A program made the translations under genes and the position numbers. This document shows positions 17,527 through 56,258 of a stretch of DNA of 64,000 bases, piece by piece. Origin of the DNA: a virus (lineage: Duplodnaviria > Caudoviricetes); IMG/VR virus record IMGVR_UViG_3300014206_000010, positions 24,452-88,451 of that record. One strand, written 5' to 3'. The notes below the pieces were generated by a model, which worked only from the letters and a program-made list of their open reading frames with translations, searched no databases and was not told the origin of the DNA. Numbering within the stretch: the first letter of the stretch is position 1; the number at the start of each line of letters is the position of its first letter.

Positions 17527-19005
17527 TTATGCTGAAAAATCTTTTATGAAACCAAGAAAATGTTTTGCTCTCGTAAATGCAACATATACAAGATTACGTT
17601 CTTGTTCAGCCATCCAAGGAACGGTCATGCAATATTTCAAATACAATTTATCTTCACAAATAATAAACACTTTGTCACTTTCTAAACCTTTTGCTTTATG
17701 AATTGTACTCAAACAAATACCGTTCTTGTTATCATCTGAAAAAATCATTTTTATTCGGTCAATAACTTCTTGAGTTAATATCAAACCTTCTGATAAAACT
17801 TCAATGGCTTTTAATTTGTCTTCATAAATTTTATAGATTTCAGTTTCTCTTGCTTCTGCTGCAGTGCAATTCTGCTTTGTAACCACTTTTCCTATTATCC
17901 GTGATAATTCCCTTTCAAGTCTTTCCATTACATCCTTAATCTGCTTGCGATTGGTTTTCTTAATCATGTTAATAAGATTAGTTCCTATGTCTCTACCTTT
18001 GACATATGCTTTAACTCCTGAGCCTATATATTCCATACATAATTTAATCAATGGAGCTGTAACTCTACAGAGTATCATATCACCATCTTTAACATCTGCT
18101 ATAACGCTTTCCCTACTTACTACACCTGATGGCGCTTCTTTTCTTGCTTTTATTTGAGGAACAATTTCTTTGGCCATTTCTATTATATTTGCATCACAAC
18201 GATAACAAACTGAAAGAGGAAGTTTAACGGTATGGGGAATATTTTTCAATAAATTAAAACTTTCAACGTCAGCTCCAGCAAAACCATATATTGCTTGTCT
18301 TGGATCGCCAACCGCAACGAAACGACCAGTAGGTTTCAAACATTTCAAAAATAAGTTTCTTTGAGCTGTATTTAAATCCTGACATTCATCTATAAAGACC
18401 CAATCATATTGATTCATTCGTAATTTTTTTACATTGGGGAAATAAATCATATCAGTAAAATCTATAATTTGAGTTTCACTTTCTCCCCATTTTATTCCTT
18501 TAATTGCAATATCAATTTCATTATTCAAAATATCAATATTATGTTTGAAAGCTATATCATCAAGTTCCCTTTCAGTATTTATTAGATTTACTCTACCGAG
18601 GTCAATTAACTTTATAATATTTTGTTTCCAATTATACATTTCTTCATTTGTTAATGTAATATTAGATTTCAATATTCCATACTTTATTCCATTATTAACC
18701 CAAGAAATATATTTATCTTTAGATAATTTAGAATTCAAAGAACGCATAACCGCTGAAGCTCCAAGGCTATGAAGAGTTTTGATTTCCACATTATCCATAT
18801 TTCCAATCTTTATTTTTAATTCTTCAACAATAGCTTTATTAAAAGCTAAAAACAACACTTTTTTATTCTTAGGAATAAGTTTCAAAGCATTAACAATTGT
18901 AGTTGATTTTCCTGAACCTGCAACGGCATCAATAACAACGTTTCCTTTCCCCTTTTGAATATAAATGTAAACAGCTTTTTGATATTTACTTGGTATGAAT
19001 GTCAT
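17527..19005 (-). CDS. UvrD/Rep-like SF1 helicase (copy 1)
   Basis: AVAGSGKST, LAFNK, IDECQD, VGDPRQAIYGF, SVCYRC, STIHKAKGLE, YVAFTRAK. Confidence 0.9.
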   Translation of the reverse strand: MTFIPSKYQKAVYIYIQKGKGNVVIDAVAGSGKSTTIVNALKLIPKNKKVLFLAFNKAIVEELKIKIGNMDNVEIKTLHSLGASAVMRSLNSKLSKDKYISWVNNGIKYGILKSNITLTNEEMYNWKQNIIKLIDLGRVNLINTERELDDIAFKHNIDILNNEIDIAIKGIKWGESETQIIDFTDMIYFPNVKKLRMNQYDWVFIDECQDLNTAQRNLFLKCLKPTGRFVAVGDPRQAIYGFAGADVESFNLLKNIPHTVKLPLSVCYRCDANIIEMAKEIVPQIKARKEAPSGVVSRESVIADVKDGDMILCRVTAPLIKLCMEYIGSGVKAYVKGRDIGTNLINMIKKTNRKQIKDVMERLERELSRIIGKVVTKQNCTAAEARETEIYKIYEDKLKAIEVLSEGLILTQEVIDRIKMIFSDDNKNGICLSTIHKAKGLESDKVFIICEDKLYLKYCMTVPWMAEQERNLVYVAFTRAKHFLGFIKDFSA

Positions 19006-22512: not shown

Positions 22513-24195
22513 TTAGATAAAAGAATATCTAAATCCAGTAGATAATTTATTTGCTCCCAATGTAGCAAGCCAAATTGATGAACTGATATCATCGTGTTCT
22601 CCTACGCTTTCAAGACCATGCTCAGTAAATGCAACTGAACCGAGGTCACTGAATATAAGGTCTTTCATGTTTTCTGAAAATTTGTCTCCAATAGGTATAT
22701 GTATTTTACCTCTTTCAAATAAAATAGCAATTCCTGGCCAACCTGTTTTTAAATCATATTTATCTATTCCAGTAGTGTGCCCCATTACAGGCATCCCTTG
22801 TTTATCTCCTTCTTGTACAAATATTTGCTGAAAAGTATTCTGTTCCATTACTATACAATTGGGTCTGAATCTTACATTTAATCCTTTTAATATTTGCATC
22901 TGTTCATGGAATGTCTTTCCCTTATCTCTGTAAATATTTAATAAATACATTTCTCTTGTATCATCTTCAACTCCCCAAGTAGAAAATACAGTATAATCAC
23001 TTCCAACATTTGCAGAAATAGCAAAGTCACATCCCATAACAACTTTATTAAACTTCATAGGAAAATCATCACGATTTCTAACAAGCGTATAATTCTCCAT
23101 TCTAACCAAAGAACGCTCCAAAATCTTTAATGGAAATATTGATGATTCATTTGTAATAGGACGACAAAGATTTTCTCTTGAAAAGATTATATTTCCTTGA
23201 GTTTGTTTTTTATCCATTAAGTCAGCAAAACTCCAACGCTGGGGCCATAATATACGTCCGTCAGGAAATATAGCAGGATATTCAATTACAAACCATCCTT
23301 TTTTACTGGCTTTACTTCTTAAATCTCCGTATAAATCTGAAGCATGAAAAGGAGTTCCGACAACAATTATTTGTCCTCCAGGAACAAGCATATTCATAAT
23401 TACTGAATGAAAATAGTCAATGCTCTTTTTTCTTTGTAGAGAACTGTATATGACGTTATCTTTTAATCCATCATCAACTACTATCCAATATGGATGAGCA
23501 CCACGTACTGACGACCCAAACCCCTTACACGTCAACCTCGCTCCGTTCTTACATACTATGTTAGTTGAAGCCCAAGCTCCTGCGTTACGAGTATCGGGAA
23601 ATAATCTATCTTTTAATACATCATTATTTTCAATTGTTCCTTTTAATATTTCCATTAAATCAACAGATTGCTGAAGAGAAAAGCTAAACAAATATCCTCT
23701 GTTAGAATTTGATTTTGTAGGTCTTGCTGAAAATACACTACTTTTTGGCTTAGAATATCGATATAATTGCCAAGCAGCGTAAGCATTGGAAAAATAATAG
23801 GACTTCCCGTGGTCTCTCGCTGCGTTGATACACAACTTTCTATGTCTGTGAACTAAATCCCCCCACTCAAGATGATGCCATGATAATTGAAAATCAGGCA
23901 TAACAGAAGTTATAAAATATGTTAGATTTTTGTTTCTTAGAGTTTCTTCTATAGATAATGAAAGTCTTTCAGTATATTTAGGAGCAAAATCAACTTTTGT
24001 ATCTCCAGTAAACATTACCTGAAAAGTATCTTTCATCAAATTATCTAATACCCAATCTAAATCTCCTTCTGATCCCTGCATTAATTCCAGTATGCCTTTG
24101 TCATCCATGCCGTCAATTATCTCATCAACTATATTTAGACATTCAAGTCTATGCATTGGAGATTGTAACAAAGTAGTTTTACCAATATCTGCCAT
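22513..24195 (-). CDS. terL: Terminase large subunit
   Basis: AARDHGKS Walker A, IVVDD Walker B, VVGTP; nuclease MGCDFA..SDYT..EQN..HDD. Confidence 0.92.
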   Translation of the reverse strand: MADIGKTTLLQSPMHRLECLNIVDEIIDGMDDKGILELMQGSEGDLDWVLDNLMKDTFQVMFTGDTKVDFAPKYTERLSLSIEETLRNKNLTYFITSVMPDFQLSWHHLEWGDLVHRHRKLCINAARDHGKSYYFSNAYAAWQLYRYSKPKSSVFSARPTKSNSNRGYLFSFSLQQSVDLMEILKGTIENNDVLKDRLFPDTRNAGAWASTNIVCKNGARLTCKGFGSSVRGAHPYWIVVDDGLKDNVIYSSLQRKKSIDYFHSVIMNMLVPGGQIIVVGTPFHASDLYGDLRSKASKKGWFVIEYPAIFPDGRILWPQRWSFADLMDKKQTQGNIIFSRENLCRPITNESSIFPLKILERSLVRMENYTLVRNRDDFPMKFNKVVMGCDFAISANVGSDYTVFSTWGVEDDTREMYLLNIYRDKGKTFHEQMQILKGLNVRFRPNCIVMEQNTFQQIFVQEGDKQGMPVMGHTTGIDKYDLKTGWPGIAILFERGKIHIPIGDKFSENMKDLIFSDLGSVAFTEHGLESVGEHDDISSSIWLATLGANKLSTGFRYSFI

Positions 24196-29110: not shown

Positions 29111-29159
29111 ACGATTTATTATTATTTTGTTTAACTGGAATGAATAACTTTGATGGCTT

Positions 29160-29815: not shown

Positions 29816-29860
29816 GTTAATAATGTTTAATTTGTTATAAAATAACTTTGTTTTACAATA

Positions 29861-31004: not shown

Positions 31005-31034
31005 AAAAAAAAAGGGGCAACTTTCGCTTGCCCC
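31005..31034 (-). terminator. Terminator ending the tmRNA transcript
   Basis: GGGGCAA-GCGAAAG-TTGCCCC followed by U9 on the minus strand. Confidence 0.85.
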
Positions 31035-31345
31035 AAATTTCGGTTCACGCAACGGCTCTTAGCTGTTGAGGGAACATTTGAATTATTTTGCCTGTTATTG
31101 GCTTGTAAGTACTCCACAAATCATACTTATATGCTGTCAAATCCATTCACCCCCTTAAAAAATGATCGGATTGGCTTTTCATCTCCCCTTAGGTGAGTTT
31201 TGCATTCCGTTAGGCATTCCACCGATCATTTTTAAACACCGTACTATCGCGACGGATTAACGCATAATTGGCTGCTATGGTGGAGGTGACGGGAGTCGAA
31301 CCCGTGTCCAAACATACTTTACTAAATGTATCAACGTACTTACTT
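31014..31345 (-). ncRNA. ssrA: tmRNA gene, circularly permuted (two-piece): acceptor piece ~31343-31278, intervening segment 31277-31155, coding piece from 31154 to ~31035/terminator
   Basis: The 3' tRNA-like end (GGACACGGGTTCGACTCCCGTCACCTCCACCA) precedes the 5' end (GGGGGTGAATGGATTTGACAGC). 7-bp acceptor stem with G3:U70; tag ORF 31092-31045 encodes GKIIQMFPQQLRAVA*. Confidence 0.92.
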
Positions 31346-31348
31346 CAT

Positions 31349-31507
31349 TTATAACTTTGCTAAAATTAATAACCGAATTATAATTAAAAATAACAATATA
31401 ATACATAATATGTACGCTTTCTTATCAGAACTTTTAATAACTTGTTTAATGTCCTCTCTAATAGCTTTATTTTCCTGAACTTCTTTATTCTTCTTTACTT
31501 TAAACAT
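31349..31507 (-). CDS. 52-aa protein with C-terminal TM (below track cutoff)
   Basis: Manual translation MFKVKKNKEVQENK...YILCIILLFLIIIRLLILAKL*. Confidence 0.5.
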   Translation of the reverse strand: MFKVKKNKEVQENKAIREDIKQVIKSSDKKAYILCIILLFLIIIRLLILAKL

Positions 31508-35081: not shown

Positions 35082-35915
35082 TCATTTAATCTTACTCCAA
35101 TGAACTATAACATCCAAACTTTCTTTACCTTCAAAATCTCCTCCCCAATTGTTATTATTTCTTTTCTTGATAGATATTATATCAGGGAACGCTTCCGCCA
35201 TACGTTTGGTCTCTGAATTCATAAAATCAACATTCCTATAATTAGAGCAACCCCCTTTGGCATTAGAACCGCTTGTCTTATCAAACGCAAATTTATTTGT
35301 AATTAATATATCATACCCCATTTTCCGCATTGCTATACCAGTAGCAAAATCTTCCTTGATAGGCCAATCGGACATATATATAGGATTCTTCTTCTGAGAA
35401 TAATATTTCTTACAATCAACCCCCCATATAGCAAAGAAACGTTTATTGCGTTCTATATCCTTCATACCAATTCTATTGAAAGGTCTGAATGAAATTCCGG
35501 CAATACCTATATTCTTTTCATCAAGAGAATCCCATAACCAATTAAACATATTAGCCTGATGTTCTAATATTTCGCTGTCAGTAAAATTATTCTTGTTTAA
35601 CACTCTCGGAGTCTTGTATCCGTCGAGACGTACTGAGAACGTTATATTATCGTCCACAAATATTATCTTTCCCTTAGGAGCGTTGTAAGCAAGCCATTCC
35701 CTTACTTCAGCAAGATTCTTAGCATTGGAATCATATTCTTGAATATTTTTAACCTTATCACCCCAATTCTTTTGATGCAACTTTAATTCTCCTGAATGAC
35801 AAAACAAAGAAATTTGTTTTAATATTTCCGGATGTAACCTTTTCAAAGTTTTTTGATCATCAACTCTGCCCCGAGTTGTCAAAGCAATAAATATATCTTT
35901 GTTTATTTTTCTCAT
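35082..35915 (-). CDS. GT-A fold glycosyltransferase, TAGT/GREB1 (base-J glucosyltransferase)-like
   Basis: IALTTRGR, IIFVDDN (DxD-like), KEDFATGIAMRKMGY, GGCSNYR motifs. Confidence 0.65.
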   Translation of the reverse strand: MRKINKDIFIALTTRGRVDDQKTLKRLHPEILKQISLFCHSGELKLHQKNWGDKVKNIQEYDSNAKNLAEVREWLAYNAPKGKIIFVDDNITFSVRLDGYKTPRVLNKNNFTDSEILEHQANMFNWLWDSLDEKNIGIAGISFRPFNRIGMKDIERNKRFFAIWGVDCKKYYSQKKNPIYMSDWPIKEDFATGIAMRKMGYDILITNKFAFDKTSGSNAKGGCSNYRNVDFMNSETKRMAEAFPDIISIKKRNNNNWGGDFEGKESLDVIVHWSKIK

Positions 35916-39022: not shown

Positions 39023-40507
39023 TTATTTTATTATAAAAACTTTGCCTTTCAAATCATTATTAAATATTGGAGTCCAAACATAAATTAATTCTTTCTTAGC
39101 TCTGGTAATACATACATATTTAAGATTTTGTTCTTGCTCGTATTGCCAAGGTTGTGTTGCATATTTACTTGGTATAAGTTCCGGAGCTAAAAAGAATATG
39201 CGGTCATTTTCCAAACCTTTTGCTTTATGTATCGTACTTAACATTATCCCTTTTATATCATCTGAAAAAATATTATTGATTAATTTCTTCAATTCTGCTA
39301 CAGTGTTTACTTGCTCACAAAGACATTCTATCACTTCCGTTTTTTGTTGCAATAATTCCATTTTAGGATGTAAACTTGGTCTTTTGAATCCTCTTTTTTC
39401 AAGTTTTCTCAAAAGTTTATTCTTTTCAAACTCAAGCATACTTTGTAAACCGCTTAATGTTTTTGTTCCTGTTTTATTTATCAAACTCAAAATACCTTCT
39501 CCAATTTCTTTTCCTCTGATTTTTGATTTAATTTTATTTTTCATTAACCAAAGATATGTTTGAACCAAAGGTTTCAAATTTCTACAAAGTATCCAATCTC
39601 CTTGTTCTATTTCTGTTAAACTACCGTCTTTAACAATTCCTTCAATAGCATTTGGAGCATATGATATTTCAGGTACAATTTTTTGAGCTTCTTTTACAAT
39701 ATTAATTGCACACCTATAAGATACACTCAAAGGCAATTTAATTGCTCGTCCATTAATGTTAGCAAGTCGGTCATAACTTTCTGCATCTGCTCCCGCAAAT
39801 CCGTATATTGCTTGTCTTTTGTCTCCTACCGTTACCAATCTTCCTTTTCTATTTAAACACTTTTTTATGAATTCATGTTGAGCTAAAGAAAAATCTTGAC
39901 TTTCATCACAAAAAACATAATCAAACTTCCGGAAACGAATTGAAAAATCAGTAACAGGAACATATATCATATCCATGAAATCAAATTGAGATTTATCTTT
40001 GATAGTATATTCAAAGGCTTTCATAACCATTTTGATATCATCTTCTTCGATATTTACATCATAATGATTAACAAGTTCTGTTATTGATTCAACATCATTA
40101 TTACAAAGATTACATCTCATCAAATCTAATATCTTAGGAATAACATAAAAAAAATAACCTTTTTTCTTTTCAGGTATTTTGAATTCTTTTAAAACTTTTT
40201 CTGTTTTCGCTATACCTTTATTGGGATTCATTTTAACTTTTCCTCCATATCTCTGAAGAATTGAATGCCAACCACAAGAATGTATAGTCATTATATCAAC
40301 ATCTCTTTTTTCATTTTTATTTTTTAATTCATCAACAATTGAATTATTAAAAGCAAGGAACAGGGAACTTGAGTTATCTGGAATATATTTCAACAATTCT
40401 AATAACACAGTAGTTTTCCCTGAACCTGCAACAGCTGATATGTTAATGTCTTTATTTGTTAATTGAAATACTTTATAAATTATTTTTTGATTTTTTGAAG
40501 ATTTCAT
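39023..40507 (-). CDS. UvrD/Rep-like SF1 helicase (copy 2)
   Basis: AVAGSGKTT, LAFNN, CDESQD, VGDKRQAIYGF, SVSYRC, STIHKAKGLE, YVCITRAK. Confidence 0.9.
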   Translation of the reverse strand: MKSSKNQKIIYKVFQLTNKDINISAVAGSGKTTVLLELLKYIPDNSSSLFLAFNNSIVDELKNKNEKRDVDIMTIHSCGWHSILQRYGGKVKMNPNKGIAKTEKVLKEFKIPEKKKGYFFYVIPKILDLMRCNLCNNDVESITELVNHYDVNIEEDDIKMVMKAFEYTIKDKSQFDFMDMIYVPVTDFSIRFRKFDYVFCDESQDFSLAQHEFIKKCLNRKGRLVTVGDKRQAIYGFAGADAESYDRLANINGRAIKLPLSVSYRCAINIVKEAQKIVPEISYAPNAIEGIVKDGSLTEIEQGDWILCRNLKPLVQTYLWLMKNKIKSKIRGKEIGEGILSLINKTGTKTLSGLQSMLEFEKNKLLRKLEKRGFKRPSLHPKMELLQQKTEVIECLCEQVNTVAELKKLINNIFSDDIKGIMLSTIHKAKGLENDRIFFLAPELIPSKYATQPWQYEQEQNLKYVCITRAKKELIYVWTPIFNNDLKGKVFIIK

Positions 40508-42318: not shown

Positions 42319-42344
42319 TTTTATAATTATAAAAATAACTTTGA

Positions 42345-45291: not shown

Positions 45292-46012
45292 ATCTCCAAC
45301 CTTTTTCTAAAAATTCGTCAGATTTTATAACTTTGGTTATCACGCCATTAGTTATGTAACGATTTCCTAAATTTGCATTTCTCAATTTTTGTTTTGTTTC
45401 TTTACCAACTTTCTTGCCTTTATGAGTTTCAGATATTTTCTTCAATCCTTTCTCGGAGTATTTTCTTTTTGTTTTGAGCATAGCTTCTTTAATATGCTGC
45501 TTATGTTCATCAGAAAGTTTTTTACCCTTTTTAGCAATAGAAAGTTTTTTCTTGTGCTCATCAGACAATTTGCCTGTATTTTTACCAATCATTGAAGATG
45601 ATTTCTTTCTTCTCGTTTCTTCATCCTCTTTGATACCGTATCTTGGATTTTTGCTTCCAATCTTACTTTGTCTTATTTTCTCTCTGACTTCTGGTAAGGA
45701 AGTAAAATATGTATCGCAATTCATACCGTTAGTTGAACCACAAACTATATTATATCCAATCTTCGGGTCAGTTGAGTTATATTTCTTGGTGAATATGTAC
45801 TCCCAAACATTTAATAATTTCTTACTTGGTATATAATCTTTCAATATTTCTCTTTTGAAATTTTCTCTACCGTATTTTTCTATTGCCTTTAATAATGTTG
45901 GGCCACTACCAATATACCAAGGGTCAAGAGTTTTCTCACTAAATATCTTGTGTTGACCTATGTAAATTTTACCAGTTATAAGACAAGTTGTTTTGTAAAT
46001 AATTCCTCTCAT
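45272..46012 (-). mobile_element. Free-standing GIY-YIG homing endonuclease (NUMOD3 repeats)
   Basis: GIIYKTTCLITGKIYIGQH, Y.GSG, LSDEHKKKLS repeats, C-terminal YITNG..GWRYG. Confidence 0.88.
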
Positions 46013-50444: not shown

Positions 50445-52523
50445 CTATTTTTTTTTAACTTTGTTTATTTTTGTTTTATAATCAGATATTACATATAACT
50501 TTGTTTTATCATTACTCATTAATTTCTTTTCTTTTTTAAATCTATCATTTTCTACAGTTCCATTAATAGCTACAATACAACCTTTCAAATTAGCAATATC
50601 TTCGCCTATTTTCTCAAAAGTGTTGGGCCACATAAGAATAGGAATTATGGTATTATTACAATCTATATTTAAGATACACATAATTCCATTCTTAATTTCT
50701 TTCTCTTTGTAATATATTAATTTACCTGCCACAGTCACTTCAGTTTTTTCTTTAGTAGTTAAAAATTCATCATCATTAACATAAATTTTAGCAATTCTTT
50801 TATTTGGTATAGCATCACATATCATACCTTTATAATCAACTTCACCAAATCCAGTAAGACGTTTCTGCTCTAAAATCCAAAAAGCATTAGTTTTAGCATC
50901 TTCGACATTATATTCTTCAGGCATTGAATCTCCCCTTACTTCAAGATACTTTGATAAAAGTTTTCTTCTTTCTCTTGGATTTTTAATATCTTCAAGAAGG
51001 TCAAACGCTCCAGCAATAATAAGATGTTTTACAACAGTTTTATTAACCTTCGAAGGCACTCGGCTTAAGAATTCTTCTAACGAATAAAATTGACCACCTG
51101 AATTCCTTGTATTCATAATATTTTGAACTGCTACTTCTCCCACTCCTTTAATTTTAGTAAGACTGAAGAATATACGTTGTTCTTTTGAATCACAAGTAAA
51201 ATTTATATCAGAGAAATTAACATCTGGCGGACGTATTTCAATTTCAATTCCAGTTTTCTTTAATTCAGCAAGTTTATATGGTACTCCAGCTTCTTTAGAA
51301 AATTGTAATGCAGTTGTCCAAAATTCCAATGGATAATTTACTTTGAACCATTGACTCCAATATGACATAATTGAATATGCTGCAGCGTGACTCTTATTAA
51401 AACCATATCCAGAAAATGCAAGTAATTTATTCCAAACTTTATCAGCATATTCTTTAGGTTTTTTAATATTATTTTTTTCAAGTAATTTTATATATCCTGT
51501 TTTAAATTTTTCTCCAAATGAACTTAGTGTTTTTATATCCTTCTTTTTAATAGTTGTTCTAAGAACATCTGATTCAACTTCAGTTAAACCTCCAACAATA
51601 ACAGCTTTCATAATCTGTTCCTGATATACATATAAAGAAAATGTTTCTTTTGTTATTTCTTCCATACCAAAATCATATGAAGGTTTTTTCTTCCCGTTCT
51701 TAATATCAGCAAAATCTCTATGAGCATACACTCCCATTGGACCAGGACGAAATAAAGCAGTCATTGCTATAAGGTCTTCAAGATTATCTGGTTTAACTTG
51801 TCTACAATAATTCATCAAACCAGTTGTACCAAACTGAAATACATCTTCATTCCAACCTCTTTTAAAATATTTAAAGGTTTCATCGTCATCAAGAGGAATT
51901 TTATTAACATTAATTTTTTTACTACAATTTTTTTTTATCAAAGTGAGAATACTCTTAAACTTATCAAGCTGAGATAATCCAAGAATATCTTCTTTTAGAA
52001 ATCCTGATTTATCAATATATTTACCTTCCCATTCTGAAACTAATACACCATCAATATTTTTGATTGGCAGCAATTCCCATAAATCAATTTTCCTTCCATC
52101 AATTGAAAATTTAGGGACTATAACAACAGCTGAAGGATGTACTGATTCTGCCTTTGGAATTAATAAAGCATATTTACAAAGATGAACAATATCCGGATAA
52201 TCTTGAACAAATTTGAATAATGTCTTAGATTTTGTAGCATATTGTATCAAATCTCCCCAAGTATATTCAATTTGGTCATCAATGTCTTTTGTTAATTTAT
52301 TAGTATAATCAAAAGATAACCCCTTTTCTTTTCCAAAATCTTTTATACAAGTTTTCAATTTCATTCTTGTATATGTTCCAATAGAACAAGTGTAATTATA
52401 TCCATATTTTTCCTTGATATAATTTTTCACTTTATCCCTATATTCTGTGGGGAAATCAATGTCTATGTCCGGCATCATATCGCCACGATATATCTTCTTT
52501 TCTACTATTTTTGATATTTTCAT
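50445..52523 (-). CDS. dnaE: DNA polymerase III alpha (DnaE-type), C-terminal catalytic fragment
   Basis: MPDIDIDF, SVHPSAVVI, LKEDILGL, FRPGPM, YQEQIM, GYGFNKSH, IKGVG, OB fold. Confidence 0.95.
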   Translation of the reverse strand: MKISKIVEKKIYRGDMMPDIDIDFPTEYRDKVKNYIKEKYGYNYTCSIGTYTRMKLKTCIKDFGKEKGLSFDYTNKLTKDIDDQIEYTWGDLIQYATKSKTLFKFVQDYPDIVHLCKYALLIPKAESVHPSAVVIVPKFSIDGRKIDLWELLPIKNIDGVLVSEWEGKYIDKSGFLKEDILGLSQLDKFKSILTLIKKNCSKKINVNKIPLDDDETFKYFKRGWNEDVFQFGTTGLMNYCRQVKPDNLEDLIAMTALFRPGPMGVYAHRDFADIKNGKKKPSYDFGMEEITKETFSLYVYQEQIMKAVIVGGLTEVESDVLRTTIKKKDIKTLSSFGEKFKTGYIKLLEKNNIKKPKEYADKVWNKLLAFSGYGFNKSHAAAYSIMSYWSQWFKVNYPLEFWTTALQFSKEAGVPYKLAELKKTGIEIEIRPPDVNFSDINFTCDSKEQRIFFSLTKIKGVGEVAVQNIMNTRNSGGQFYSLEEFLSRVPSKVNKTVVKHLIIAGAFDLLEDIKNPRERRKLLSKYLEVRGDSMPEEYNVEDAKTNAFWILEQKRLTGFGEVDYKGMICDAIPNKRIAKIYVNDDEFLTTKEKTEVTVAGKLIYYKEKEIKNGIMCILNIDCNNTIIPILMWPNTFEKIGEDIANLKGCIVAINGTVENDRFKKEKKLMSNDKTKLYVISDYKTKINKVKKK

Positions 52524-52524
52524 A

Positions 52525-53328
52525 TTAATTTCTACTTTTCATTCCGTATCTAAATCCAGAAGGTAATATATCTCCTTTATTTATAACAGTATTTACAATA
52601 TCATTAGTTATTCTAACCTTGCCTGTCATAGAATTAACATAATCTATATTTTTTGTTTTATTTTTAATCTTTTTACTTAATTGTTTCTTCTTTTCTTCTG
52701 TCCATTTATTACCATAATTAGCATTAAGATTACCAATAAATCTTCCTTTCATCTTTTCAGATTGTTTCTTTTTTTGTTCGTCATTCCAATAATTTTTATA
52801 ATTAGGATTTTTATCACCTGAATATCGTCCTTTCAATGTTTTAGATATTTTATCTTTATAATCTGTTTCTTTTAATGTTTTTAATCTTTTAAGTTCTATA
52901 TTTTTTCTTATTTCAGGATGTAATTTATTAAATCTTTTTACTGATTCTCCACATTTTTTTGCTATATTTGGGTCTTTCATAGGACTTCCTGAACCGAACT
53001 TATTAGCAGTACCCCATAAAACGTTACAACCTCCTAATTTATAAGAATAATGAGCTTTTTCTTGTTTGATATAATATTCTTCCATCTTATCAAGACATTT
53101 TTGAGAACAAGGTCTTTGATATAAAATTTCACGTCTTATAAACTTTTTCCAATGCTTAGGATAATCTTGTTTCAACTTATTTATAAAATTTGTCCAAATG
53201 CTACCGCTACCAGGATATAAATCAAAATCTTCTAAACAAAAGTGTTGCCCTACATAAAAAGGTTTATGTCCATTAAATTTATATTTTGTTATGATTGTAA
53301 ATTTGTAAATTATACCTATTTGTTTCAT
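52525..53328 (-). mobile_element. GIY-YIG homing endonuclease inserted between the two polymerase fragments
   Basis: GIIYKF..FYVGQH, YPGSG, NPNY/NANYG NUMOD-like repeats, C-terminal RITN..GFRYG. Confidence 0.88.
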
Positions 53329-54998
53329 GACATTGTTTTTAATTTATCAACATCTATATCTATACTTGATAAATCTAAATCAACGTTAATATCTATTTCT
53401 TCCCCATTTGTTAAAGGTAATTTCTTGCCTTTAGGAATAGTAATTTTTTCTCCATTTTCTAATTCTAATTCAAAAACAATTGGAGGTGTAACACGAGTTT
53501 CATTTAAAAAACGTGAAAACATTAATCCATATTTTAATGGATCAACATCAGTAATATGTAGACAATAAGCAACCAAACTACCACAAACTGAACCACGACC
53601 TGGTCCTGTATTTATATCTCTTTCTCTACACCAATTAATAATATCCCACAGAATCATAAAATAATCAATCAAACCGTTTGGAACAATAACTTCGCATTCT
53701 GTTTCTATTTGCTTTAAATAAATTTCAAGCTTATCTGGTTTAAGATGTCCAAATCTTTCATTAACACCTTTTTCTAATTCTTTGAAAAATAATTCTTCAA
53801 CATTATCAACTTCAAAACGAGGTAATTTTCTTTCTCCTGTATTAATCCTAAAATTAATATCATCAACTAATTTAGAAGCATTCAATATACCAGACGTTAT
53901 AGCTTCAAACAAAGGTTCTGTATTTTCAATCCATTCTGAATAAGCATTAATGGTATCACCAGCACTCTTAAAATATTGTTCTCCTGATTCAGGTGATACC
54001 CTATTATTGATTTTATTCAATAAAGTTTTGAGTTCACTTTCTTCTTTATCAAGATAATATGAATCATTTATCAAAATAGGTTCTAACATTTTACGATAAT
54101 TACACAAATAAGTATCTATGTTTTCAAGATGTTTCTTAAACAATTGCTGAGAAATGAATTCAACTGTATCAATCTGATAAAATACTTTATCAAAACTTTT
54201 TTTGTATTTAGATATTAATTTTATTACTTCTTTTCTATTATCCTTAATATAATTTATTTCACTTTCCTTAGGCACTACGCAACATAATCCCTCTCCGAGC
54301 GTATAAAGTAAGGCATCTGGAATAAACCCTTTGTAATCAACATTTATAGCTTTATTCACAAGAAGTAAATTTTTCCATCCTTGATAATTGAGAATGTACA
54401 ATTTTAATTCAAATATTTCTTGATTTTGTTTTTCTTCTGAATATTCCTTAGCAACAACTATGGTTTCTCCAATAACTGATTTCATTCCCTTTTTTTCACA
54501 AAAGGTTTGAAAAGAAAGAGTACCAGCCATGGTATTTTTATCACAAATTCCAAGTGCTTTACAACCAAGAAAAGAACCTTTTGTAACCCATAATTCAGGA
54601 GAACCGGAACCATTCATCATTTCATATTCTGTGTGAACTCCTAAATGAACAAAATCCATTATAAACGGTTCACTTGTTTTACCAAGATATTTGAAATCAT
54701 TAAATTCTGGTTTATATATGATTTCATTGTACTTATTCTTATCTTGTTTTAATCCCGAATAATAAAATTTAGTTCCAAATTCAAATAAAATGAAATTAAC
54801 TTTTTTTTCATCTAATATATCAAATTCTTCATCTGAAAGAATAAATGAAAAATCCTCATCAATTATTTTACCTTCAAATGAATGCAAGTACAAAAAATCA
54901 CCAATCTCTTTTATTGAAATAATATCAGAATCGTTTAATTTTGACTCTGATATTATTAACTTATTTTCTTCTACCCATTTTGCTAAAGTATCCGTCAT
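53325..54998 (-). CDS. dnaE: DNA polymerase III alpha N-terminal fragment (extension + PHP domain)
   Basis: [53 protein letters not shown]; stops before PDID. Confidence 0.93.
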
Positions 54999-55001
54999 AT
55001 T

Positions 55002-56258
55002 TTAAAGTTTACCTAAAAATTCATGATTTATTTTAACAGATAACCTTGAAAAAAAGAAATTCTTAGCAAGCATTGAAATATCCCAATTGTAATCTGACGC
55101 ACCATAACCTTCGTCAATTTTCATTTTAGCTTCTAATATTTCTATTTCAGAAATAGCACAATGTCTTGCTACATCTTTTTCAATGTCAGTTACTAAATTA
55201 ATCATTTTAATCTTGTAATTCAAATAAATTTTCAATAGCTGATAAACGTTAAACAAATACTTAGAAAAGTTTGCTAATTGATTAATTTCATCTTGTATCT
55301 CACTTTCTCCCTTTGATATTTTAATAAGATTATCAATTATAATCTGAAGATTATATTCAATCTCTCTAAAACAATTTACAGGTATTTCATGGCTGAAGTT
55401 GAAATCTATGCGTTTTTCTTTAGCATTGCAATCTTCGTACATATTTCCTACAACTTTTTCACTTTTACCTTTAATCCATAAATCACTCATATTCTTAGCA
55501 ATCTTATTCCATTTATAAATATGAAGGCTTTGAGAATTATGAGTTTGCGTACCAAGCTCAATTCTTAAAGCTCCGGCAATAAGTTCAGTGAGAAAACTGA
55601 ATTGAAATATATTTGTTGGCAACCCCCAATGTAAATCATTACTTCTATTTTGGACAGTTGTAATTAATTTTCCCTTCCTTATTTTGAACATTATTATATC
55701 ATTACAAGGAATGTCTTTGGTTTTATATCCCAAATCAAAATTAGGATTCCAAATAGCCATAACCACTTGTCTTGAGTTAGAATTTTCTGAAAATAATTTA
55801 ATAACATCAATGACTTGGTCGTAACCTTTTGAAGCGTTTAAATTATCATCAACAAATGAATCTTCAGTTCTAATTCCCCAATGACGCAAACGATAACCAT
55901 AAGGAGCGTGAAACGTTTTACCATCATCAGAAAAATCTGCCATCTTCTTGTTGAATAAAGTTAAAAAAGATACATCCTTTTTCCCTAAAGCAATCCACAT
56001 TGCTTCTGCTAAAAGAAAGAAAATATTTATATTCCTTTCATAACCACCAACACATCTACGATATGGATTAGTCAATTGTGTTTTTAAATCAAAAATTTCT
56101 TTTACTTCACCATCTCTACTTGATTCATAAGGTCTTTGAGTATATATATAATAATTAATCAAAGGATACATCCCTGAAAAACTTTCTGTTTTAACTACTC
56201 CAAGCTCAGGCGCAAAAACATTATTAATGTCAATTTTTTCTCTGTTCATAATTTTCAA
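55002..56258 (-). CDS. Thymidylate synthase-fold enzyme; candidate dUMP hydroxymethyltransferase
   Basis: EAMWI, YGYRL, DQ, SRQ, IWNP, DIPCN, RSNDLHWGLPTN (Asn, consistent with dUMP specificity), SLHIY. Confidence 0.85.
   Translation of the reverse strand: MKIMNREKIDINNVFAPELGVVKTESFSGMYPLINYYIYTQRPYESSRDGEVKEIFDLKTQLTNPYRRCVGGYERNINIFFLLAEAMWIALGKKDVSFLTLFNKKMADFSDDGKTFHAPYGYRLRHWGIRTEDSFVDDNLNASKGYDQVIDVIKLFSENSNSRQVVMAIWNPNFDLGYKTKDIPCNDIIMFKIRKGKLITTVQNRSNDLHWGLPTNIFQFSFLTELIAGALRIELGTQTHNSQSLHIYKWNKIAKNMSDLWIKGKSEKVVGNMYEDCNAKEKRIDFNFSHEIPVNCFREIEYNLQIIIDNLIKISKGESEIQDEINQLANFSKYLFNVYQLLKIYLNYKIKMINLVTDIEKDVARHCAISEIEILEAKMKIDEGYGASDYNWDISMLAKNFFFSRLSVKINHEFLGKL

What the first reader, a model, noticed from the sequence alone, without database searches (positions are those of the whole stretch)
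31014..31345. Phage-encoded circularly permuted (two-piece) tmRNA
Seen: on the minus strand the T-arm/acceptor 3' end (..ACGGG TTCGACT CCCGT CACCTCC A CCA, ending 31278) comes before the 5' end (GGGGGTG AATGGATTTGAC, starting 31154). The pieces form a perfect Ala acceptor stem with G3:U70, helix 2a (AGCATA/TATGTT) and an 8-bp helix (GTACTTAC/GTAAGTAC). A tag ORF and a strong terminator follow. Established: permuted tmRNAs are known from Alphaproteobacteria, some cyanobacteria and some Betaproteobacteria, whereas Bacteroidota tmRNAs are, as far as I know, one-piece. Inference: an independent permutation in a phage, giving it its own ribosome-rescue RNA. tRNA scanners would probably miss or miscall it.
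Basis: partly seen in the sequence, partly recalled or inferred. Interest (0 to 1): 0.88.

Follow-up and report, generated by a model that had tools for sequence, protein, structure and literature searches.

The report
Two-piece tmRNA gene in Bacteroidota phage
This uncultured, roughly 100-kb phage, probably of Bacteroidales, carries a real back-to-front ("two-piece") gene for tmRNA, the RNA that frees stalled ribosomes; it belongs to a small, pseudoknot-poor lineage that looks derived from the host group's own one-piece tmRNA, is already annotated in some phage records, and is described in none of the papers I could search.

Summary
On the minus strand, the 3' tRNA-like half (31343..31278, ending ACCA) precedes a 123-nt spacer and the 5' half (G1 at 31154). 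A tag frame (31092..31045, GKIIQMFPQQLRAVA*) and a terminator follow. Rfam's merged permuted-tmRNA model scores 62 bits (cut-off 47). ARAGORN misses it.

Thirteen of 79 related phage contigs, plus a phage contig in a Bacteroidales MAG, carry the same gene. Spacers are unalignable (76-234 nt; two hold a tRNA-Glu). Compensatory changes occur in all five helices, G3:U70 is invariant, and tag changes are mostly synonymous.

The lineage fails the alpha, beta and cyano models (28-42 bits, tRNA-like domain only), which other phage permuted tmRNAs pass. It shares UUUGACAGC/GUUUGGAC, a glycine resume codon and usually no encoded CCA with Bacteroidia-type one-piece tmRNAs. It has no room for pseudoknots.

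An independent, Bacteroidota-derived permutation is therefore likely (about 0.6) but unproven.

It is less novel than claimed. Phage two-piece tmRNAs are published. Members of this lineage are annotated in Chryseobacterium phage MA9V-3 and in crAss-like phages. This scan noted the lineage before on other DNA. Processing, charging and function are untested.

The parts
31351..31359 (-). Promoter-like motif CAAAGTTAT, 7 nt upstream of the first paired base of the acceptor piece
   Evidence: There are 6 exact copies in the window, all on the minus (coding) strand, against 1.6 expected; 0 of 100 shuffles reach 6. The same or a near motif sits 7-9 nt upstream of the acceptor piece in most homologues. 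Promoter function is inferred.
31278..31343 (-). Acceptor piece (66 nt). It comprises the P2c strand 31343-31336, P2b 31329-31327, the P2a strand 31317-31311, UGGAC 31310-31306, the T arm 31305-31289, the acceptor 3' strand 31288-31282, discriminator A 31281 and an encoded CCA 31280-31278.
   Evidence: Sequence; Rfam alignment; covariation.
31155..31277 (-). Intervening sequence (123 nt) between CCA and G1, presumed to be discarded
   Evidence: The spacer is unalignable among homologues and ranges from 76 to 234 nt. Its own fold is unremarkable, z -1.0. No Rfam family matches it.
31010..31154 (-). Coding piece (about 141-145 nt). It comprises the acceptor 5' strand 31154-31148, the P2a strand 31135-31129, P2b 31118-31116, the P2c strand 31112-31105, a 12-nt single strand, the tag frame and the terminator.
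   Evidence: The 3' end is assumed to be at the terminator's U run.
31045..31092 (-). Tag reading frame GGC..TGA. It encodes GKIIQMFPQQLRAVA*, preceded by the alanine carried on the tmRNA. The resume codon is nucleotide 63 of the coding piece.
   Evidence: The frame was read by homology with ARAGORN's calls in relatives, such as GKTIQMFPQQLRAVA* in L099 and L113. Window against L092 shows 6 synonymous and 2 non-synonymous codon differences.
31005..31034 (-). Intrinsic terminator: a 7-bp GC-rich stem, a 7-nt loop and a run of T
   Evidence: It is conserved in position in homologues, with changes on both sides of the stem.

Best explanation
This is a working, phage-encoded, circularly permuted tmRNA gene of a lineage found in phages of Bacteroidota.

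Inferred pathway: a single transcript runs from a phage promoter-like motif, starts at or near the acceptor piece, and ends at the intrinsic terminator. The two halves pair through a long interrupted helix 2 (P2a, P2b, P2c) and the 7-bp acceptor stem. The spacer is left as a loop. Host RNase P cuts 5' of G1 (31154). Host 3' processing trims after A73 or the CCA (31278). In most relatives CCA is not encoded, so host CCA-adding enzyme must add it. The result is two RNAs of about 66 and about 141-145 nt held together by base pairing.

Host AlaRS then charges the RNA through G3:U70. Host SmpB and EF-Tu deliver it to stalled ribosomes, since no smpB was found in the phage record. Translation resumes at GGC and appends (A)GKIIQMFPQQLRAVA.

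The RNA has no room for pseudoknot 1 or pseudoknots 2-4. The 8-bp intermolecular helix P2c probably takes over PK1's stabilising role.

The gene most likely descends from a Bacteroidia-type one-piece tmRNA by a permutation separate from the alpha, beta and cyano ones. It is an accessory gene, present in about one in six related phages.

The confidence given (0.78) is for a real, functional permuted tmRNA gene. For the independent Bacteroidia-derived origin alone I put about 0.6.
For: Identity: RF04321 scores 62.2 bits against a cut-off of 47. The acceptor stem with G3:U70, the T arm and helix 2 are in the sequence.

Selection for structure: the gene occurs in 13 of 79 whole records of TerL-related phages and in a phage contig of a Bacteroidales MAG. 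Across them, 91.4% of cells are paired. Eighteen of 30 pairs change on both sides (0 of 500 shuffles reach this), and slid controls give 42-51% pairing. G3:U70 is present in 11 of 11 distinct sequences.

Selection for the tag: the frame always opens with GGC AAA and ends Ala/Val-rich. LRAVA is kept through four third-position changes. Nucleotide differences by codon position are 78, 80 and 135.

Spacer dispensable: spacer lengths range from 76 to 234 nt with no common sequence. In L090 and L091 a tRNA-Glu gene lies inside it.

Two pieces are required: 13 of 14 genes lack an encoded CCA, so cleavage after the discriminator is needed before charging.

Host group: the nearest TerL and DnaE homologues are in Bacteroides, Chryseobacterium, Tenacibaculum and Cellulophaga phages. 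A near-complete relative sits in a Bacteroidales MAG.

Origin: the alpha, beta and cyano models give only 28-42 bits, on the tRNA-like domain alone. As a positive control, other phage permuted tmRNAs pass beta_tmRNA at 118-128 bits or alpha_tmRNA at 61 bits. The lineage shares UUUGAC-AGC, GUU-UGGAC, a Gly resume codon and a missing CCA with Bacteroidia-type one-piece tmRNAs. Other phage permuted tmRNAs have UUCGAC, GCN resume codons, AN.. tags and an encoded CCA. A tree forcing all permuted genes together is 29 lnL worse (p-AU 0.05). Only the phage contig matched RF04321 among 150 Bacteroidota genomes, and 38 of 41 carry a standard tmRNA.

Minimal form: the resume codon is at nt 60-66 from G1, against 90-103 in one-piece Bacteroidota tmRNAs. 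Only 10 nt separate the stop codon from the terminator.
Against: ARAGORN does not call this copy.

The window's copy is the odd one out: it alone encodes CCA and uses a TGA stop.

The tRNA-like-domain tree is poorly resolved (support 48/56). Holding the phage lineage together with the Bacteroidia-type tmRNAs is itself 10 lnL worse than the free tree (p 0.26).

My comparison set held no bacterial alpha, beta or cyano sequences, only phage copies typed by Rfam. The shared characters could reflect adaptation to host SmpB, AlaRS and processing enzymes rather than descent.

PK1 is needed for tagging in E. coli unless replaced by a hairpin (PMC3968760), so a PK1-less tmRNA might work poorly or differently.

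The tag is longer than host tags (15 against 9-10 residues) and ends AVA rather than LAA or FAA.
Confidence: 0.78

Rival explanations
1. The gene was captured from one of the three known permuted bacterial lineages (alpha, beta or cyano), or from their phages. It later shrank and converged on Bacteroidota host features.
For: Among the old lineage models, beta_tmRNA or cyano_tmRNA gives the best partial score. The beta consensus also has UGGAC and GACA. One other phage permuted tmRNA (L004) also has its resume codon at nt 63. The tRNA-like-domain tree cannot exclude this (p-AU 0.05 for all permuted genes together). Permuted tmRNA genes do move between phages of different hosts (PMC9004378).
Against: The matches to the lineage models cover only the universal tRNA-like domain and fall far below the gathering scores. 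Genuine phage-borne beta and alpha copies pass those models full-length. Three separate characters (the P2a sequence, the Gly resume codon with its upstream context, and no encoded CCA) all point to Bacteroidia-type tmRNA.
Confidence: 0.17
2. The RNA is not a rescue RNA but a decoy. It titrates host SmpB, AlaRS or ribosomes and so inhibits host trans-translation, as proposed for the tRNA-like-domain-only molecule of mycobacteriophage DS6A.
For: No smpB was found in the phage record. The RNA lacks all pseudoknots. The tag differs from host tags. A precedent is discussed in PMC4131195 and PMC11915505.
Against: The tag frame is conserved in frame, start and C-terminal character, with mostly synonymous changes. 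The single-stranded UAA(A/C)N context before the resume codon is also conserved. A decoy would need none of this.
Confidence: 0.08
3. It is not a functional gene. It could be an assembly artefact, an attP-type fragment of a host tmRNA left by integration, or a decaying relic.
For: Phages that integrate into ssrA carry 3' fragments of it (stated in PMC9004378). ARAGORN does not call this copy.
Against: The same order of parts occurs in 14 contigs from different samples. Both halves are present and co-vary. The gene has its own promoter-like motif and terminator. The tag frame is intact in all copies.
Confidence: 0.02

Closest known systems
Permuted tmRNA genes annotated in phages of Bacteroidota. 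Examples are Chryseobacterium phage MA9V-3 (PV245944.1, 22766-23124) and the crAss-like Suoliviridae cr50_1 (NC_055868.1), cr10_1 (NC_055875.1), cr114_1 (NC_055897.1) and cr60_1 (NC_055891.1).
   Same: They share the permuted order and RF04321 scores of only 50-65 bits. They also share a Gly resume codon at nt 60-63 from G1, UUUGAC-type 5' ends, no encoded CCA, variable spacers of 60-214 nt that sometimes hold a tRNA gene, and Ala/Val-rich tag ends.
   Different: The carriers are different phage groups (DnaE about 35% identical, or unrelated crAss-like phages). The tags differ (GN... against GK...). The window's copy encodes CCA, uses a TGA stop and is not called by ARAGORN. I found no paper that describes these annotated genes as a lineage.
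Phage-encoded two-piece tmRNAs of aquatic myophages (OM43 phage Melnitz and pelagimyophages; PMC9004378), and the beta- and alpha-type copies in IMG/VR contigs L003, L006, L008 and L009
   Same: They are phage-borne permuted ssrA genes that rely on host SmpB.
   Different: Those pass the alpha or beta lineage models full-length (61 and 118-128 bits). They resume at GCN with AN.. tags, encode CCA, and mostly have the resume codon at nt 81-87. The Melnitz gene is linked to a glutamine riboswitch; none was found here.
Two-piece tmRNAs of Alphaproteobacteria, a betaproteobacterial group and some cyanobacteria (Rfam RF01849, RF01850, RF01851; Keiler 2000 and Sharkady & Williams 2004, as cited in PMC3968760 and PMC11915505)
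   Same: They share the gene order (acceptor piece, spacer, coding piece), the tRNA-like domain assembled from two RNAs, and a reduced number of pseudoknots.
   Different: This gene fails all three curated models and is smaller (about 205-210 nt in total). It has no room for PK1, a glycine resume codon, and is found on phage DNA rather than in the host chromosome.
One-piece tmRNA of Bacteroidia (for example L108 from the Bacteroidales MAG, and L137-L140)
   Same: It shares the 5' UUUGACAGC and 3' GUUUGGAC sequences flanking helix 2a, a GGC resume codon after UAAAU/UAACU, and usually no encoded CCA.
   Different: These are 372-400 nt, with the resume codon at nt 96-99; four pseudoknots are the general rule for tmRNA (PMC3968760) but I did not map them in these sequences. 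Their tags are 9 residues long and end ALAA, AFAA or AMAA. They are not permuted.

Membership tests
tmRNA, permuted form (Rfam RF04321) | Score at or above the curated gathering threshold of the merged permuted model | tested here: met
   62.2 bits against 47, E 1e-9, model positions 1-213.
tmRNA, permuted form (Rfam RF04321) | The 3' tRNA-like half lies upstream of the 5' half on the same strand, and the two form a 7-bp acceptor stem with G3:U70 and discriminator A | tested here: met
   G3:U70 is present in 11 of 11 distinct homologues, and there are compensatory changes at two acceptor pairs.
tmRNA, permuted form (Rfam RF04321) | A tag reading frame downstream of helix 2 that ends in a hydrophobic, Ala-rich C-terminus | tested here: met
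   The frame is 31092..31045 and encodes GKIIQMFPQQLRAVA*. It is conserved with a synonymous bias. ARAGORN calls the homologous frames in relatives.
tmRNA, permuted form (Rfam RF04321) | Maturation into two base-paired RNAs, alanylation, and SmpB-dependent tagging | not testable with these tools
The feature is inferred from the missing CCA in 13 of 14 genes.
[quoted passage not shown] | Full-length match at or above each lineage model's gathering score (50, 84 and 70 bits) | tested here: not met
   The best scores are 31.7 bits (beta) in the window and 28-42 bits in relatives, covering only model positions of about 77-166. As a positive control, L006, L008 and L009 score 118-128 bits on beta and L003 scores 61 on alpha.
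Bacteroidota-phage permuted tmRNA lineage (annotated in MA9V-3 and crAss-like Suoliviridae; not a curated family) | Gly (GGN) resume codon about 60-66 nt from G1, with no room for PK1 | tested here: met
   The window has GGC at nt 63. Relatives have it at nt 63-66, MA9V-3 at 63, and the crAss-like genes at 60-62.
Bacteroidota-phage permuted tmRNA lineage (annotated in MA9V-3 and crAss-like Suoliviridae; not a curated family) | Bacteroidia-type helix-2a flanks (UUUGAC-AGC and GUU-UGGAC) | tested here: met
   The window has AUUUGACAGCAU and AUGUUUGGAC.
Bacteroidota-phage permuted tmRNA lineage (annotated in MA9V-3 and crAss-like Suoliviridae; not a curated family) | CCA not encoded | tested here: not met
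   The window encodes ACCA. All 13 relatives and the five database members do not. I treat this as a usual feature rather than a defining one.
Standard one-piece tmRNA (RF00023) | Colinear 5'-to-3' order with pseudoknots | tested here: not met
   There is no RF00023 match at the gathering score in the window. The order of parts is permuted.

The most novel reading that the evidence does not exclude
Phages of Bacteroidota, including abundant gut crAss-like phages and this ~100-kb family, carry a fourth, independently permuted tmRNA lineage. It would be derived from their hosts' one-piece tmRNA and stripped of all four pseudoknots to about 210 nt. If it is active, it would be the smallest natural tagging-competent tmRNA. 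It would also show that an intermolecular helix can replace PK1 in nature.
Probability: 0.5. Interest if true: 0.62.

Novelty: new variant of a known kind. Interest (0 to 1): 0.52.

Why it matters
Permuted tmRNA is textbook for three bacterial lineages. A further origin, in phages of a phylum whose cells use the one-piece form, would be another natural replay of RNA gene permutation.

The lineage is also a natural minimal tmRNA. It has a tRNA-like domain, one long helix, a single-stranded tag frame and a terminator. That bears on what pseudoknot 1 is for.

On the practical side, ARAGORN-based phage annotation pipelines miss copies such as this one. Typing by the old lineage models would label them 'beta' or 'cyano'. 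This may explain the 48 permuted genes counted in Bacteroidota genomes in PMC11915505.

A cultured pair exists for testing: Chryseobacterium phage MA9V-3 and its host.

Tried and rejected
1. ARAGORN on the window, including lowered thresholds and a scanner-only test variant with a TAA stop, made no call. I did not find out why.

2. DNA searches of the phage collection with the window's gene found only a 44-nt T-arm match in an Alcaligenes phage and nothing by megablast. Relatives had to be reached through TerL.

3. I considered that a GGUGGA segment in the spacer pairs with the acceptor 3' strand as a conserved 'anti-acceptor'. The longest complements are 4-6 nt and are matched by 8-97% of shuffles, so I rejected the idea.

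4. I looked for a structured or known RNA in the window's spacer. The fold z-score is -1.0 and no Rfam hit appears at E<=10 apart from noise.

5. I searched for a phage smpB; none was found in the 88-kb record, which is 89% complete.

7. To fetch bacterial alpha or beta comparators I tried to obtain an E. coli handle, but there was no match.

8. PMC516066 and PMC16621, the original two-piece papers, are not held. Their content is cited only through reviews.

9. Gene order around the tmRNA in relatives that lack it is rearranged. I could not define a clean empty site.

Full report
**What is there**

Read on the minus strand, the region starts with a promoter-like word, CAAAGTTAT (31359..31351). 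A 66-nt segment follows (31343..31278). It ends in UGGAC, a 5-bp T arm with loop UUCGACU, the strand CACCUCC, a discriminator A and CCA. After a 123-nt spacer comes GGGGGUG at 31154, then AAUGGAUUUGAC and a helix-2 strand. A 12-nt single strand leads to an open frame, GGC..UGA (31092..31045). Ten nucleotides further on is a GC-rich terminator hairpin with a U run (31034..31005).

The two halves form a 7-bp acceptor stem with G3:U70. Every coordinate in the finding is right.

**Is it more than chance?**

Rfam 15's merged model for permuted tmRNA (RF04321) matches 31340..31045 at 62.2 bits, against a gathering score of 47, with E 1e-9. ARAGORN reports nothing in the whole window. It stays silent at lowered thresholds.

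**What carries it**

The window is part of an 88-kb IMG/VR virus record judged 89% complete. It has 29% G+C, and the ORFs that read as genes are nearly all on one strand. It encodes a portal, a large terminase, a split DnaE-type polymerase, UvsX-like, SbcCD-like and DnaB-like proteins.

The nearest isolated relatives are all phages of Bacteroidota. TerL is 36% identical to the Bacteroides phages DAC19 and its relatives. DnaE is about 35% identical to those of Chryseobacterium, Tenacibaculum and Cellulophaga phages. A 97-kb relative with 86% TerL identity is binned in an 'uncultured Bacteroidales' MAG. A Bacteroidota, probably Bacteroidales, host is therefore a reasonable inference. It has not been demonstrated.

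**Relatives and selection**

TerL brought in 80 related IMG/VR loci. I searched the whole records behind them with RF04321. After inspection, 13 of 79 records carry the gene, including 3 of 32 records that are at least 90% complete. The MAG's phage contig carries it too. The gene is thus accessory. It lies in a rearranging zone of small genes.

All 14 copies have the permuted order. The spacers range from 76 to 234 nt and cannot be aligned with one another. In L090 and L091 the spacer contains a complete tRNA-Glu(UUC) gene.

I wrote down a structure of five helices in 30 pairs and counted it on 11 distinct sequences.
- 91.4% of cells pair, against 76.1% in shuffles (0 of 500 reach it).
- With partners slid by one to three columns, pairing falls to 42-51%.
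- 18 pairs change on both sides, against 9.6 in shuffles (0 of 500).
- The acceptor stem and T arm are 100% paired, and G3:U70 is invariant.

This covariation spans the spacer. The two halves are therefore selected to pair with each other.

The tag frame always opens with GGC AAA. It ends RAVA, RAAA, AMAA, AVAA, QAAA or RAVV. Between the window and L092 there are six synonymous and two non-synonymous codon differences. LRAVA is kept against L095 through four third-position changes. Across pairs, third positions carry 135 differences against 78 and 80 at the first and second positions. The frame is therefore read as protein.

**Why two pieces**

Thirteen of the 14 genes do not encode CCA; only the window's copy does. 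Charging needs a free CCA end. The transcript must therefore be cut after the discriminator, and that cut separates the halves. No smpB was found in the phage record, so host SmpB, AlaRS, EF-Tu, RNase P and 3'-end enzymes are presumed to act.

**Size and pseudoknots**

The resume codon is nucleotide 63 of the coding piece, and 63-66 in relatives. In 29 of the 30 one-piece tmRNAs from Bacteroidota genomes it lies at nt 90-103; the remaining one (L142) is a 523-nt outlier call with the codon at nt 246. Only 12 nt separate helix P2c from the resume codon. Only 10 nt separate the stop codon from the terminator.

There is thus no room for PK1 or for PK2-PK4. The mature RNA would total about 205-210 nt, against 347-401 nt for those 29 one-piece tmRNAs. 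PK1 is required for tagging in E. coli, but a stable hairpin can replace it (PMC3968760). The 8-bp intermolecular P2c helix sits in exactly that place, and I suggest it plays that role.

**Which lineage**

The old lineage-specific Rfam models match only the universal tRNA-like domain. The window scores 31.7 bits on beta, and relatives score 28-42 bits on beta or cyano. The gathering scores are 84, 70 and 50.

As a positive control I scanned other phage-borne permuted tmRNAs found by a DNA pattern.
- L006, L008 and L009 pass beta_tmRNA full-length at 118-128 bits.
- L003 passes alpha_tmRNA at 61 bits.
- All of these score 98-147 bits on RF04321.

Those genes resume at GCN with AN.. tags, have UUCGAC, and encode CCA. 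The window's lineage instead shares four characters with the Gly-tagged, Bacteroidia-type one-piece tmRNAs, including the tmRNA of the very MAG that holds the related phage contig (L108). The characters are UUUGAC-AGC, GUU-UGGAC, a GGC resume codon after UAAAU/UAACA, and absence of CCA.

A maximum-likelihood tree of the 65-column tRNA-like domain puts 10 of 12 phage sequences with 5 of 7 Gly-tagged one-piece sequences, but support is weak (48/56). Forcing all permuted genes into one group costs 29 lnL (p-AU 0.05). Forcing the phage lineage together with the Gly-tagged one-piece tmRNAs costs 10 lnL (p 0.26).

In 150 sampled Bacteroidota genomes, RF04321 matched only that phage contig. Of 41 genomes, 38 have a standard tmRNA.

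I read this as probable independent descent from a Bacteroidia-type tmRNA, at about 0.6. Capture from a known permuted lineage followed by convergence on host factors is not excluded. My comparison set also lacked bacterial alpha, beta and cyano sequences.

**What is already known**

Phage-encoded two-piece tmRNAs are published. Melnitz and the pelagimyophages carry them, and 53 ARAGORN-called two-piece structures were reported among 18,146 phage genomes (PMC9004378).

Notes from this scan say that a Bacteroidota-type phage lineage had been seen repeatedly on other DNA and is annotated in crAss-like phages and a Chryseobacterium phage. I checked this claim.
- Chryseobacterium phage MA9V-3 has an annotated 'transfer-messenger RNA SsrA' at 22766-23124. 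RF04321 scores it at 64.7 bits, and ARAGORN reads it as permuted with tag GNVIDINKYVAKLEVAA.
- The crAss-like Suoliviridae cr50_1, cr10_1, cr114_1 and cr60_1 have annotated tmRNAs that ARAGORN reads as permuted with GN.. tags.
- In these, the resume codon is at nt 60-62 and CCA is not encoded.
- RF04321 scores cr50_1, cr10_1 and cr114_1 at 50-60 bits; cr60_1 gave no match at the gathering score.

The kind is therefore in the databases. However, I found no paper that describes it. The 2025 tmRNA database paper still speaks of three permuted clades, yet its table lists 18 'alpha', 23 'beta' and 7 'cyano' permuted genes in Bacteroidota genomes (PMC11915505). Some of those may be binned phage copies like L113; I did not test this.

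**Verdict**

The gene is a real and very probably functional phage tmRNA of the permuted form. The independent-origin reading is the better-supported one but is not settled. The novelty is moderate: an undescribed but already annotated lineage, with this copy invisible to ARAGORN. Function during infection remains a hypothesis. Possibilities include freeing ribosomes when host messages are destroyed, or coping with RNA-cutting defences. The gene's presence in only about one in six related phages fits an accessory fitness gene.

Noticed in passing
L090:1622-1693 (also L091); L155:743-815: Complete tRNA genes lie inside the discarded spacer of the permuted tmRNA gene. Two relatives of this phage carry tRNA-Glu(UUC) there, and the crAss-like phage cr114_1 carries tRNA-His(GUG). 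The tRNA's own processing would help release the tmRNA halves.
   Followed up: partly
L153:78-244; L155:219-386; L156:333-434: RAGATH-22, RAGATH-9 and RAGATH-20 RNAs match above Rfam's gathering scores. They lie a few hundred bases upstream of the permuted tmRNA genes of the crAss-like phages cr50_1, cr114_1 and cr60_1. No such RNA is present in the window.
   Followed up: no
window 29144-29152, 29842-29850, 31351-31359, 42335-42343, 45327-45335, 50495-50503 (all minus strand): The word CAAAGTTAT occurs six times, always on the coding strand and mostly 30-45 nt upstream of start codons. Only 1.6 copies are expected. It is probably a phage promoter element that does not fit the Bacteroides TAnnTTTG consensus.
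   Followed up: partly
window 35082-35915 (-): This ORF has a TET-associated glycosyltransferase (TAGT, PF20691) match at 27.9 bits, just over the cut-off of 27.5. It hints at hypermodified DNA bases. A thymidylate-synthase-like ORF of 418 aa lies at 55002-56258.
   Followed up: no
window 50445-54998 (-): The DnaE-type polymerase is split into two ORFs (53325-54998 and 50445-52523) with a 267-aa ORF (52525-53328) between them. Cellulophaga and Tenacibaculum phages also annotate two DnaE CDS.
   Followed up: no
L098:1606-1705 (-): A weak match to the wcaG RNA motif (31.5 bits, below the gathering score of 42) lies inside the 163-nt spacer of one relative's tmRNA gene.
   Followed up: no
window 1-64000: The phage window has no tRNA gene by ARAGORN although it carries a tmRNA. 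Two paralogous phrog_1967 helicases lie at 17527-19005 and 39023-40507.
   Followed up: no
OK149171.2 55254-55297 (L152:601-644): Alcaligenes phage vB_Af_QDWS595 has an unannotated 44-nt stretch that is 93% identical to the T arm and acceptor strand of this tmRNA. It may be an unannotated tmRNA or a tRNA-like element.
   Followed up: no
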